Assembly: GCA_052034935.1 (NCBI GenBank) | Contig: JBPOIB010000001.1 | Coordinates: forward strand, 172,173 to 236,172 | DNA: 64,000 nucleotides | Direction of reading: 5' to 3' | Source: Candidatus Moraniibacteriota bacterium | GTDB lineage: Bacteria > Patescibacteriota > Minisyncoccia > Moranbacterales > UBA1568 | In this document: piece by piece, positions 48,125-48,450 of the stretch | Numbering within the stretch: the first letter of the stretch is position 1 | Layout: each line of letters begins with the position of its first letter | Program-made: the position numbers and the translations under genes | Notes under the pieces: model-generated | The model's database searches: none | The model's input: only the letters and a program-made list of their open reading frames with translations | Told to the model about the DNA's origin: nothing

Positions 48125-48450
48125 CGGATCAAGGCCGCCAAGGGGGCAGCTGTACGCAATCGTATCCGATCCGTTTTTGTGAAGAAGTGTTTTTGAAACC
48201 GTAGTACCTGTAAGTGTGCGTGTGTGAACCCCTCGTCATCGATGTGGCGGGGAGGGAGGCTGGAATATGCCTTCCGTTAGTGGTCCCTTGTGCGTGGTTC
48301 CCGTTCGATCGGCGTGGGGATGTTCTCCTCCTCGGCGGTCGTTCGTGGAGCATCGAGAGGGCTGTCCATGGCGAATCCAGGCAGCTCGCACCGGGTTCCG
48401 TACGGCGATAGTTGTTGTGCCTGATAGATTGCGGCCCCCTTGGCCAACCG
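48125..48450 (+). ncRNA. candidate structured ncRNA upstream of the RT (retron msr/msd-like), bounded by inverted repeats 48138-48166 and 48423-48445
   Basis: About 450 nt without a convincing ORF; CCAAGGGGGC...GCAATCGTATC near the 5' end is the reverse complement of GATAGATTGC..GCCCCCTTGG located 58 nt before the RT start; possible TTACAA-16-TAGTCT promoter at 48092-48118. Confidence 0.3.

What the first reader, a model, noticed from the sequence alone, without database searches (positions are those of the whole stretch)
48138..48445. Long-range inverted repeats (a1/a2-like) flank the noncoding region upstream of the RT
CCAAGGGGGC(agctgtac)GCAATCGTATC at 48138-48166 is the reverse complement of GATAGATTGC-GGCCCCCTTGG at 48423-48445, about 260 nt away. 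In retrons such inverted repeats (a1/a2) flank msr-msd and define the RNA that primes reverse transcription from a 2'-OH of a guanosine just after a1. The palindrome CCGTACGG occurs twice within the bracketed region. A plausible promoter, TTACAA-16-TAGTCT, lies just upstream at 48092-48118.
Basis: seen in the sequence. Interest (0 to 1): 0.6.

Follow-up and report, generated by a model that had tools for sequence, protein, structure and literature searches.

The report
Pseudoknotted RNA partner of retron-like RT
The inverted repeats are real and conserved: they form a long-range helix in a roughly 330-base structured RNA that always sits in front of an uncharacterised retron-like reverse transcriptase, but the RNA is knotted unlike classical retron RNAs and the system has no toxin partner.

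Summary
GCCAAGGGGGC (48137-47) pairs with GCCCCCTTGGC (48434-44), and GCAATCGTATC (48156-66) pairs with GATAGATTGC (48423-32). The same two-part helix occurs upstream of the homologous RT in 15 of 16 loci (Bdellovibrionales and Patescibacteria MAGs; RT identity down to about 40%). Eight of the 11 outer pairs show compensatory changes, and the inner helix is rewritten in about seven versions.

It closes a roughly 330-nt ncRNA that has its own conserved promoter, conserved hairpins and a variable domain, and it is probably co-transcribed with the RT. The RT belongs to the retron lineage: only retron HMMs match, retron RTs are the top structural hits, and NAxxH is invariant.

The "retron a1/a2" reading is only partly supported:
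- a2 lies inside the loop of a second covarying hairpin, whose arms are the two CCGTACGG copies.
- a1 lies inside a loop closed by GGAUC/GAUCC at the predicted 5' end, so a1:a2 is a pseudoknot.
- The G of VTG is replaced.
- No effector gene is conserved near any locus; the flanks are housekeeping genes.

Most likely this is an effector-less, pseudoknotted variant of a retron-type RT-ncRNA module. msDNA-like priming from the invariant G48168 is inferred, not shown.

The parts
48091..48119 (+). Promoter: -35 TTTACA (48091-96), 17-nt spacer, TGc extended -10 plus TAGTCT (48111-19)
   Evidence: The motif CTTTACA-N17-TGnTAnnnT is conserved in homologous loci. The distance from the -10 to GGRTC is 6 nt in all 15 loci. 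The simple consensus scanner did not call this site, because its -10 matches only 3 of 6 positions.
48126..48130 (+). P_a 5' strand, GGAUC, at the predicted 5' end of the RNA
   Evidence: It is invariant in 14 loci. L176 has GGGUC paired with GACUC, which gives one compensatory change and one G-U pair.
48137..48147 (+). a1 outer arm, GCCAAGGGGGC
   Evidence: It pairs with 48434-44. The helix is 11 bp, 8 pairs carry changes on both sides across 15 loci, and 98.2% of cells are paired.
48148..48155 (+). Asymmetric internal loop AGCUGUAC, with a conserved GUA
   Evidence: Alignment. The loop is absent in L176.
48156..48166 (+). a1 inner arm, GCAAUCGUAUC
   Evidence: It pairs with 48423-32. There are about seven different sequence versions, all forming 8-11 bp. 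The cognate versus non-cognate test gave 0 of 20000 permutations as good as the observed pairing.
48168..48172 (+). GAUCC: P_a 3' strand. G48168 is the candidate priming guanosine.
   Evidence: GAYYC is present in 15 of 15 loci, 1-3 nt after the a1 inner arm. The priming role is inferred only.
48173..48230 (+). Variable GUA-rich linker, 16-73 nt long in relatives
   Evidence: It has the lowest conservation of the RNA: 0.40 among the four closest relatives at 48195-48209. Sequences are shown.
48231..48252 (+). Hairpin H1. The conserved base is YGUCAU / AUGGUGGCRG; relatives carry a long distal insert.
   Evidence: RNAalifold finds 6 pairs. Four have changes on both sides and two are near-invariant U-G pairs.
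48254..48275 (+). Hairpin H2, GGGAGGC / GCCUUCC
   Evidence: The pairs covary, and the hairpin is present in every single-sequence fold.
48276..48395 (+). Variable structured domain containing a 50-70-nt imperfect hairpin. This is the msd-like candidate template region.
   Evidence: Single-sequence folds and low conservation at 48300-48344 and 48375-48389.
48396..48405 (+). P_d 5' strand, UUCCGUACGG, which contains the first CCGTACGG copy
   Evidence: It pairs with 48448-57. Of the 9 aligned pairs, 7 carry changes on both sides and 99.1% of cells are paired.
48406..48422 (+). Single-stranded stretch of 17 nt between P_d and a2, ending in the invariant RCCU (48419-22). This is the candidate template entry.
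   Evidence: Alignments. L002 and L170 carry an extra covarying mini-hairpin here.
48423..48444 (+). a2: inner arm GAUAGAUUGC (48423-32), a single G (48433), and outer arm GCCCCCUUGGC (48434-44)
48448..48457 (+). P_d 3' strand, CCGUACGGGA, which contains the second CCGTACGG copy
48458..48502 (+). Spacer carrying the conserved GUUCYUUCA-like motif and the Shine-Dalgarno sequence AGGAG (48492-96)
   Evidence: Alignment. No terminator-like site lies before the RT.
48503..49603 (+). Reverse transcriptase ORF, 366 aa, of the retron lineage
   Evidence: Pfam RVT_1. The best PADLOC hits are retron RT models. NCBIfam retron_St85 scores 1e-18, below its cutoff. The top Foldseek hits are retron RTs. NAxxH and YVDD are invariant.

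Best explanation
Positions 48126 to about 48457 on the + strand encode a structured noncoding RNA of roughly 330 nt. It is the dedicated partner of the downstream RT, which is a divergent member of the retron lineage.

The RNA has its own conserved promoter. No terminator-like site separates it from the RT ORF, so the two are probably co-transcribed.

This helix encloses a variable linker, two conserved hairpins (H1 and H2) and a fast-evolving structured domain.

Unlike classical retron RNAs, a2 sits in the loop of a second conserved hairpin, P_d, whose arms are the two CCGUACGG copies. Similarly, a1 sits in a loop closed by the 5'-terminal GGAUC pairing with GAUCC. The a1:a2 helix is therefore a loop-loop pseudoknot.

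At its inner end this fold places an invariant G (48168) next to an invariant RCCU (48419-22).

Most likely mechanism, by analogy with retrons and inferred rather than shown: the RT binds the conserved hairpins, primes from the 2'-OH of G48168, and copies the RNA from about 48422 towards the 5' end into the variable domain. This would produce an msDNA-like branched cDNA.

No toxin or effector is encoded with the system. Its biological output is therefore not the classical tripartite retron toxin-antitoxin switch.
For: RNA structure:
- The a1:a2 outer helix has 8 of 11 pairs with compensatory changes and is 98.2% paired. P_d has 7 of 9 such pairs. No shuffle out of 500 reaches these values, and slid controls are 26-50% paired.
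- The inner helix is specific to its cognate partner: -11.1 versus -4.3 kcal/mol, with 0 of 20000 permutations as good.
- H1 and H2 covary.
- Twenty-four G-U cells and near-invariant U-G pairs in H1 put the RNA on the RT strand.
- The MFE fold closes with a1/a2.

Linkage to the RT:
- The same architecture lies upstream of the RT in 15 of 16 loci, spanning 100% to about 40% RT identity.
- The promoter motif and the 6-nt spacing to GGRTC are conserved.
- No terminator-like site precedes the RT.

RT lineage:
- PADLOC hits are retron RT models only. The N-terminal 165 aa alone give 17 of 17 retron hits and no UG/DRT hit.
- NCBIfam retron_St85 scores 1e-18, against Drt2 at 1.7e-6 and group II at 6e-8.
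- PDB sequence hits are almost all retron RTs, with one group II RT (GsI-IIC) and one unnamed polymerase at the bottom of the list.
- The top Foldseek hits are retron Eco2, Eco8, Eco7, I-A, Ec86 and Ec83.
- The nearest proteins outside the family also match retron models.
- NAxxH is invariant in 44 of 44 sequences. It is a retron hallmark according to PMC7736814.

Conservation pattern:
- The profile (conserved scaffold, variable interior) resembles an msr/msd arrangement.
- The interior contains a 50-70-nt imperfect hairpin.
Against: - No experimental data exist, so neither cDNA synthesis nor a branch point has been shown.
- The candidate G48168 is predicted to be base-paired in P_a. It is not faced by the 'opposing G' drawn for canonical retrons.
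- a2 is enclosed by P_d, and the RNA extends beyond a2. This is not a described retron feature.
- Region Y reads [VI]-T-K/Q instead of VTG.
- All retron HMM scores are far below family cutoffs, for example 67.7 bits against a cutoff of 235. The group II RT GsI-IIC is structurally about as close as the retron RTs.
- There is no conserved effector within +/-4 kb in 16 loci.
- L168 and L169 keep a2 and P_d and an intact RT, but have no a1.
Confidence: 0.5

Rival explanations
1. The RNA is a genuine RT-ncRNA ribonucleoprotein that works by a non-retron mechanism. The pseudoknot formed by a1:a2, P_d and P_a would be a scaffold or template-boundary element, and the RT would copy a defined internal template such as the linker, the 17-nt stretch before a2, or the variable domain. 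This would be conceptually like DRT2 rolling-circle synthesis or DRT10/telomerase tandem-repeat synthesis. Priming would not come from a branch G, and the cDNA itself would be the functional output.
For: - The layout is a two-component RT plus an upstream ncRNA of about 300 nt that is pseudoknotted, with no effector. This matches the DRT2 layout of a 280-nt pseudoknotted ncRNA plus RT alone (PMC12039810).
- No conserved neighbour gene was found.
- The variable region is the least conserved part, as is the DRT2 template.
- The linker is repeat-like and GUA-rich.
- Helices bound the 17-nt stretch on both sides.
Against: - The RT is not in the UG/Abi lineage. Drt2 scores 27 bits against a cutoff of 390, and no UG model matches the N-terminal half.
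- The DRT2 structure is a weaker structural match than the retron RTs.
- No consistent stop-free antisense frame was found across the family.
- The retron-specific NAxxH motif is retained.
Confidence: 0.25
2. The structured RNA is a cis-acting leader of the RT mRNA. It would act as an autoregulatory RT-binding site, or control translation or stability, and would not be reverse-transcribed.
For: The RNA is contiguous with the RT ORF with no terminator between them. The conserved motif and the Shine-Dalgarno sequence follow P_d directly.
Against: - An RNA of about 330 nt with at least six covarying or conserved helices and pseudoknots is far more elaborate than known leaders.
- None of the helices sequesters the Shine-Dalgarno sequence or the start codon.
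- According to the papers read here, retron RTs and the DRT2, DRT3, DRT9 and DRT10 systems use their adjacent ncRNA in cDNA synthesis (PMC7736814, PMC12039810, PMC12596737, PMC12632851).
Confidence: 0.1
3. The region is a remnant or variant of another retroelement, either a diversity-generating retroelement template RNA or a group II intron fragment.
For: DGRs make up most of the RTs in CPR (PMC8632793). A group II RT is a close structural match.
Against: - No VR-like copy was found in the 64-kb window, even when A positions were allowed to vary.
- The RT has GGPLSP rather than the DGR SQ motif.
- There is no Rfam group II hit at E <= 10 and no maturase domain.
Confidence: 0.03
4. The inverted repeat is a chance feature of GC-rich intergenic DNA.
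For: In the single sequence alone, an 11-bp perfect inverted repeat appears in 0.9% of shuffles.
Against: Covariation across 15 loci rules this out.
Confidence: 0.01

Closest known systems
Retron msr-msd ncRNA with a1/a2 terminal repeats (for example Ec86 and Mx162; classification of Mestre et al. 2020, PMC7736814)
   Same: - The ncRNA lies directly upstream of a retron-lineage RT and shares its orientation.
- Long-range inverted repeats close the fold.
- Conserved short hairpins are followed by a variable structured domain.
- An invariant G follows a1.
- The NAxxH motif is present in the RT.
   Different: - a1:a2 is 21 bp, bipartite and pseudoknotted. a2 lies inside hairpin P_d and a1 inside the loop closed by 5'-terminal P_a.
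- The RNA extends at least 13 nt beyond a2.
- It is about 330 nt long, rising to about 490 nt in L176.
- The RT has VT[K/Q] in place of VTG, and its thumb region matches no model.
- There is no effector gene or fused effector domain.
- The element sits among housekeeping genes in Patescibacteria and Bdellovibrionales MAGs and is syntenic at 39% RT identity.
- All typed retron HMMs score far below their cutoffs.
DRT2 (UG2) RT with its 280-nt pseudoknotted ncRNA (PMC12039810)
   Same: It is a two-component system: an ncRNA of about 300 nt upstream plus an RT with no extra domain and no effector. The scaffold is pseudoknotted and the internal region is poorly conserved.
   Different: The RT belongs to a different lineage (retron, not UG/Abi class 2). 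No evidence was found for junction-spanning promoter or ORF features. The pseudoknot here is a long-range 21-bp helix rather than a compact 3' pseudoknot around the thumb.
DRT10 and telomerase-type template RNAs (PMC12632851)
   Same: An RT works with a structured RNA in which helices and a pseudoknot bracket single-stranded segments.
   Different: DRT10 is tripartite and protein-primed and belongs to another RT lineage. No short template with a terminal repeat could be identified here.
UG38, a class 2 UG/Abi RT group restricted to CPR (PMC9226505)
   Same: It is an RT without additional domains that is found in CPR metagenome bins.
   Different: The present RT matches only retron-lineage models.

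Membership tests
Retron | RT of the retron lineage with an NAXXH motif in region X (PMC7736814) | tested here: met
   N85, A86 and H89 are invariant in 44 of 44 family sequences. The N-terminal 165 aa hit only retron RT models. The best NCBIfam, PDB and Foldseek hits are retron RTs, although all are below family cutoffs.
Retron | [quoted passage not shown] | tested here: inconclusive
   The family has [VI]-T254 (44 of 44) followed by K (36), Q (6) or R (2), then x, then G257 (40 of 44). V and T are kept, but the G is not at the canonical position. No residue-level alignment to a validated retron RT reached this region, because the PDB hits end at residue 246.
Retron | Inverted repeats a1/a2 at the ends of the ncRNA hybridise and enclose msr and msd | tested here: met
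   The helix is supported by covariation. However, the arms are not at the RNA termini, and the helix is pseudoknotted with P_a and P_d.
Retron | Conserved branching G immediately 3' of a1 | tested here: inconclusive
   G48168 (GAYYC) is invariant in 15 of 15 loci and lies 1-3 nt after the a1 inner arm. It is predicted to pair with C48130, and there is no opposing G. Branching has not been tested.
Retron | msr with 1-3 short hairpins and msd with one long stable stem-loop | tested here: inconclusive
   H1 and H2 are conserved. The variable domain contains a 50-70-nt imperfect hairpin plus further hairpins, and it is not adjacent to a2.
Retron | ncRNA contiguous with the RT, upstream of it, and in the same transcription unit | tested here: met
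   a2 ends 58 nt before the ATG. No terminator-like site intervenes. The upstream promoter is conserved. Co-transcription is inferred.
Retron | Production of msDNA, a 2'-5' branched RNA-DNA molecule | not testable with these tools
   This needs expression together with nucleic-acid analysis.
Retron | Associated effector gene or fused effector domain (tripartite system) | tested here: not met
   An all-against-all comparison of ORFs within +/-4 kb of 16 loci found only the RT shared. The neighbours are housekeeping genes. There is no extra domain in the RT.
DRT2 (UG2) | RT belongs to the UG2 clade | tested here: not met
   NCBIfam Drt2 scores 27.4 bits against a cutoff of 390. No UG model matches the N-terminal half.
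DRT2 (UG2) | Template whose tandem copies create a promoter and a stop-free ORF | tested here: inconclusive
   No consistent stop-free antisense frame was found across 14 loci. The template boundaries are unknown, so this test is weak.
Diversity-generating retroelement | Template repeat with a cognate variable repeat that differs at A positions | tested here: not met
   blastn and an A-agnostic 40-mer scan of the 64-kb window found no copy.
Group II intron | Ribozyme domains V/VI and an RT with a maturase domain | tested here: not met
   No Rfam match at E <= 10 in 46000-52000. Pfam finds only RVT_1.

The most novel reading that the evidence does not exclude
This would be a distinct class of bacterial RT-RNA machine. 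It is a vertically inherited, effector-less retron-lineage RT bound to a 330-490-nt double-pseudoknotted RNA, and it is maintained among housekeeping genes in genome-reduced Patescibacteria and in Bdellovibrionales. Its cDNA or ribonucleoprotein would be the functional product, for example templated repeat or gene synthesis, or a non-defence cellular role, rather than the antitoxin of a toxin-antitoxin defence system.
Probability: 0.25. Interest if true: 0.85.

Novelty: new variant of a known kind. Interest (0 to 1): 0.65.

Why it matters
Retrons are currently understood as tripartite RT-ncRNA-effector defence systems, and their RNAs as simple a1/a2-closed folds.

This element would be the first retron-lineage module with three features together:
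- a pseudoknotted, much larger RNA;
- no effector;
- a housekeeping-like genomic setting, apparently inherited vertically, in CPR bacteria with minimal genomes.

That raises the question of what reverse transcription does in these bacteria. It also offers a compact two-part RT-RNA system whose priming and template rules could be worked out and possibly used for in vivo DNA production.

The ncRNA is also a strong candidate for a new RNA family, since it has no Rfam match.

Tried and rejected
- Rfam scan of 46000-52000 at E <= 10: only sub-threshold chance hits.
- Profile-driven scans of metagenome and viral contigs: these used the generic YxDD/LSP motifs and returned only distant retron RTs at 25-30% identity. 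L005-L164 were therefore not used for the RNA analysis.
- IMG/VR pattern scan for the a1 motif: 10 chance matches, none with an a2 or an RT.
- DGR hypothesis: no VR copy found.
- Neo-like stop-free frame: no consistent pattern.
- Pairing between the post-GAUCC linker and the post-P_d tail, suggested by the repeat finder I7: cognate and non-cognate energies are equal, so it was rejected.
- MAFFT plus RNAalifold on the 3' block: P_d was not recovered, because the 5' strand was misaligned. Anchor-defined gapless blocks were used instead.
- Consensus promoter scanner: it does not call the conserved promoter.
- ORF2 (49610-50389) as an effector: it is not conserved next to the RT in any other locus.
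- tRNA-linked island: there are no adjacent tRNAs.
- Compositional island: GC content equals that of the surroundings.
- A 2026 preprint on coevolutionary mining of ncRNAs was found by search but could not be opened. Prior description there cannot be excluded. It did not come up in searches that combined retron or RT terms with Patescibacteria or CPR.
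Full report
**1. The observation**

- The outer arm is GCCAAGGGGGC at 48137-48147, which is perfectly complementary to GCCCCCTTGGC at 48434-48444.
- The inner arm is GCAATCGTATC at 48156-48166, which pairs with GATAGATTGC at 48423-48432 with one bulged G.
- The arms are separated by the 8-nt loop AGCTGTAC on the 5' side and by a single G on the 3' side.

Some coordinates needed small corrections. The 3' arm ends at 48444. TAGTCT is at 48114-19. The best -35 is TTTACA at 48091-96 with a 17-nt spacer, preceded by a TGc extended -10. The second CCGTACGG copy (48448-55) lies outside the bracketed region, not inside it (D9/I24).

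In this sequence alone, the 11-bp perfect repeat is already unusual. It arises in 18 of 2000 dinucleotide-preserving shuffles of the 410-nt intergenic region. The minimum-free-energy fold of 48130-48450 closes with exactly this helix (-133.9 kcal/mol, z = -2.7).

**2. Surroundings**

The ORF at 48503-49603 (+, 366 aa) is a reverse transcriptase (Pfam RVT_1).
- Upstream are an MFS transporter and a small basic ORF, both on the minus strand.
- Downstream are a multi-TM ORF with no family match and a sugar-phosphate nucleotidyltransferase.
- No Rfam family matches the region at E <= 10.
- No terminator-like site lies between the repeats and the RT.
- GC content equals that of the surroundings, and no tRNA is adjacent.

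**3. Relatives**

The RT has a discrete family. About 35 clusters at 50% identity give full-length matches of more than 230 bits. After that, scores drop to partial, core-only matches.

Members come from MAGs and metagenomes of Bdellovibrionales, Moranbacteria, Kaiserbacteria, Minisyncoccota, other Patescibacteria and Zixibacteria. Where they are named at all, they are called "hypothetical protein" or "reverse transcriptase domain-containing protein".

I obtained DNA for 16 non-redundant loci, including the window. Every one has an intergenic gap of 300-630 nt in front of the RT.

**4. The repeats are a conserved, covarying RNA helix**

The pair CCAAGG...CCTTGG sits at about -350 and -60 relative to the RT start in most loci. 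In the divergent loci both arms change together:
- GCCAGGAAGAA / TTCTTCCTGGC in L174
- GCCGGGAAGC / GCTTCCCGGC in L175
- GCTGGGAAAG / CTTTCCCAGC in L176
- TCCAAGGAAGC / GCTTCCTTGG in L173

These are shown.

I built a gapless alignment of fixed-length blocks cut at sequence anchors. Each block was verified to occur in order in its locus. On this alignment:
- The outer helix is 98.2% paired, with 8 of 11 pairs changed on both sides.
- Whole-structure measures exceed all 500 shuffles.
- Sliding the partner by 1-3 columns drops pairing to 26-50%.

The inner helix has about seven unrelated sequence versions. Examples are CCCGGAGCUUC/GAAGUUUCGGG in L003, CGAUGCAUCU/AGAUGUGUCG in L172 and UCAUUUGCU/AGCAAGUGA in L174 and L177. 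Each forms 8-11 bp.

In an alignment-free test, cognate partners average -11.1 kcal/mol against -4.3 kcal/mol for non-cognate partners. None of 20000 permutations does as well.

One exception exists. L168 and L169 are two Moranbacteria assemblies that keep a2 and the whole 3' domain and have an intact RT. They have no a1, and no H1 or H2, within 700 nt upstream.

**5. The whole RNA**

Conservation between the window and its 87%-identical relative starts at about 48126 and runs to the RT start. Across the family I find the following elements.
- **Promoter.** The motif CTTTACA-N17-TGnTAnnnT is followed, after exactly 6 nt in all 15 loci, by GGRTC. The predicted 5' end is therefore at about 48125-48127.
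- **P_a.** GGAUC (48126-30) is complementary to GAUCC (48168-72), which follows a1. This pair is invariant except in L176, where GGGUC/GACUC keeps pairing through one double change and one G-U pair. That is weak but positive evidence for a 5-bp helix.
- **Linker.** A GUA-rich linker of 16-73 nt is the least conserved part of the RNA.
- **H1 and H2.** H1 is at 48231-52 and H2 at 48254-75. Both covary, and H1 has near-invariant U-G pairs.
- **Variable domain.** The segment 48276-48395 contains a 50-70-nt imperfect hairpin in every single-sequence fold.
- **P_d.** UUCCGUACGG (48396-405) pairs with CCGUACGGGA (48448-57). Of the 9 aligned pairs, 7 change on both sides and 99.1% of cells are paired.
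- **Segment before a2.** A single-stranded stretch of 11-30 nt lies between P_d and a2. It ends in an invariant RCCU (48419-22).
- **Tail.** After P_d come a conserved GUUCYUUCA-like motif, the Shine-Dalgarno sequence and the ATG.

G-U pairs (24 cells, plus H1) would be A-C mismatches on the other strand. The RNA is therefore made from the RT strand.

P_d encloses a2 and P_a encloses a1. The a1:a2 helix thus crosses both, so the fold is a loop-loop pseudoknot rather than a simple terminal stem. No nucleotide is shared between these helices, so they can coexist. Their three-dimensional arrangement and folding order are unknown.

**6. The RT**

- Against PADLOC, the best hits are the retron RT models RT_outgroup and RT_other, followed by typed retron RTs.
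- The N-terminal 165 residues alone hit 17 models, all of them retron RTs. The library does contain UG/DRT models (a hit to RT_UG29 appears). The C-terminal 120 residues hit nothing.
- In NCBIfam, retron_St85 scores 1e-18 (67.7 bits against a cutoff of 235). Group II scores 6e-8 and Drt2 scores 1.7e-6.
- PDB sequence hits are retron RTs, with a group II RT (GsI-IIC) and one unnamed polymerase at the bottom of the list.
- An AlphaFold model (pLDDT 88) best matches retron Eco2, Eco8, Eco7, I-A, Ec86 and Ec83 RTs at E of about 1e-11 to 1e-10. The group II RT GsI-IIC is equally close, and DRT2, Abi-P2, DRT9 and DGR RTs are weaker matches.
- The nearest proteins outside the family also match retron models.

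At the motif level, the retron hallmark NAxxH is invariant (N85, A86, H89), and YVDD and GGPLSP are conserved. Region Y reads [VI]-T-K/Q-x-G rather than VTG. The hallmarks are those defined in PMC7736814.

The RT is thus a divergent member of the retron lineage that no typed retron model recognises.

**7. No effector**

An all-against-all comparison of every ORF of at least 60 aa within about 4 kb of the 16 RTs finds only the RT shared by all loci. DUF3467 recurs in five related loci, but at varying positions and orientations.

The neighbours are housekeeping genes: enolase and PPDK, BipA, RNase R, Mur ligase and SMC-like ATPases. L175 and L176 have RTs that are only 39% identical, yet they share the same flanks. 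This indicates long vertical maintenance rather than turnover in a defence island.

No family member was found in IMG/VR. ORF2 of the window is not a conserved partner.

**8. Alternatives tested**

- **DGR.** There is no VR-like copy in the 64 kb, even when A positions are ignored, and the RT lacks the SQ motif.
- **Group II intron.** There is no ribozyme hit and no maturase domain.
- **DRT2-like gene synthesis.** The layout is similar: a 280-nt pseudoknotted ncRNA plus RT alone, with a poorly conserved template (PMC12039810). However, the RT lineage differs, and I found no consistent stop-free antisense frame. That test is weak because the template boundaries are unknown.
- **Pairing of the linker with the tail after P_d.** Rejected.

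**9. How it most likely works**

Shown computationally:
- The helices a1:a2, P_d, H1 and H2 are supported by covariation, and P_a is weakly supported.
- The RNA is linked to the RT across the whole family.
- The promoter motif is conserved.
- The RT is of the retron lineage.
- No effector is conserved nearby.

Inferred:
- The RNA is transcribed from about 48126 together with the RT.
- The RT binds the conserved H1/H2 scaffold.
- The pseudoknot places the invariant G48168, just 3' of a1, next to the invariant RCCU, just 5' of a2.
- As in retrons, the 2'-OH of that G primes cDNA synthesis, which runs from about 48422 through the P_d 5' strand into the variable domain.

I put the probability of this retron-like mechanism at about 0.5. 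A non-retron templating mechanism on the same scaffold gets about 0.25, and a purely cis-regulatory role about 0.1.

The downstream biology is open. Without a toxin, the classical model in which msDNA sequesters an effector does not apply as such.

**10. Comparison and novelty**

The element works most like a retron msr-msd/RT cassette, and it meets three of the defining features: the RT lineage with NAxxH, the a1/a2 closure, and the position and orientation relative to the RT. It fails the effector criterion. It is inconclusive on VTG, on the branching G and on the msd hairpin, and msDNA production cannot be tested here.

Its pseudoknotted closure, its size, its effector-less state and its genomic setting are not described for retrons in the literature I could search. 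Mestre et al. explicitly left open "ncRNA transcripts with unusual structures" for some clades. One 2026 preprint on ncRNA mining could not be opened.

I rate this a new variant of a known kind, with interest 0.65.

Noticed in passing
L168:2300-3010 and L169 (same arrangement): Two Moranbacteria assemblies keep the 3' 110 nt or so of the ncRNA, including a2 GGCCCCCTTGG and P_d, and an intact RT. They have no a1, no GGATC/GATCC and no H1 or H2 within 700 nt upstream. This may be a degenerate element, or the 5' half may be supplied in trans.
   Followed up: partly
window 49610-50389 (+): This 259-aa ORF lies directly downstream of the RT. It has several predicted transmembrane stretches and a Cys-rich C-terminus, and it has no Pfam, PADLOC or NCBIfam match. 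It is not found next to the RT in any other locus, so it is not a conserved effector.
   Followed up: partly
window 47840-48049 (-), with a promoter-like site at 48068..48040 (-): A small, very basic 69-aa ORF is transcribed divergently from the ncRNA promoter. It has no family match.
   Followed up: no
window 48173-48230; L172:2653-2725: The linker after GAUCC is GUA-rich and 16-73 nt long in relatives. In L172 it contains CGYAGU-like hexamer repeats. Its role is unknown.
   Followed up: partly
L002:3900-3925 and L170:2898-2925: These loci carry an extra small hairpin between the P_d 5' strand and RCCU. It shows compensatory changes (UUGCAGC..GCUGCGA versus UUGUAGUC..GACUACA).
   Followed up: no
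L175 and L176: The RTs are only 39% identical, yet both loci have the same neighbours: RNase R upstream on the opposite strand and an SMC-like ATPase downstream. The L176 ncRNA is about 490 nt long.
   Followed up: partly
L001, L002, L165, L166, L171: DUF3467 and DM13 genes recur within 3 kb of the RT in the Bdellovibrionales-like loci, but at different positions and orientations. This is probably lineage synteny rather than a functional partnership.
   Followed up: partly
window 40000-42000: GC content drops to 0.40-0.46 here, against about 0.56 elsewhere in the examined stretch.
   Followed up: no
window 48458-48475: A GUUCYUUCA-like motif directly after P_d is conserved across the family. 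No pairing partner was found for it.
   Followed up: partly
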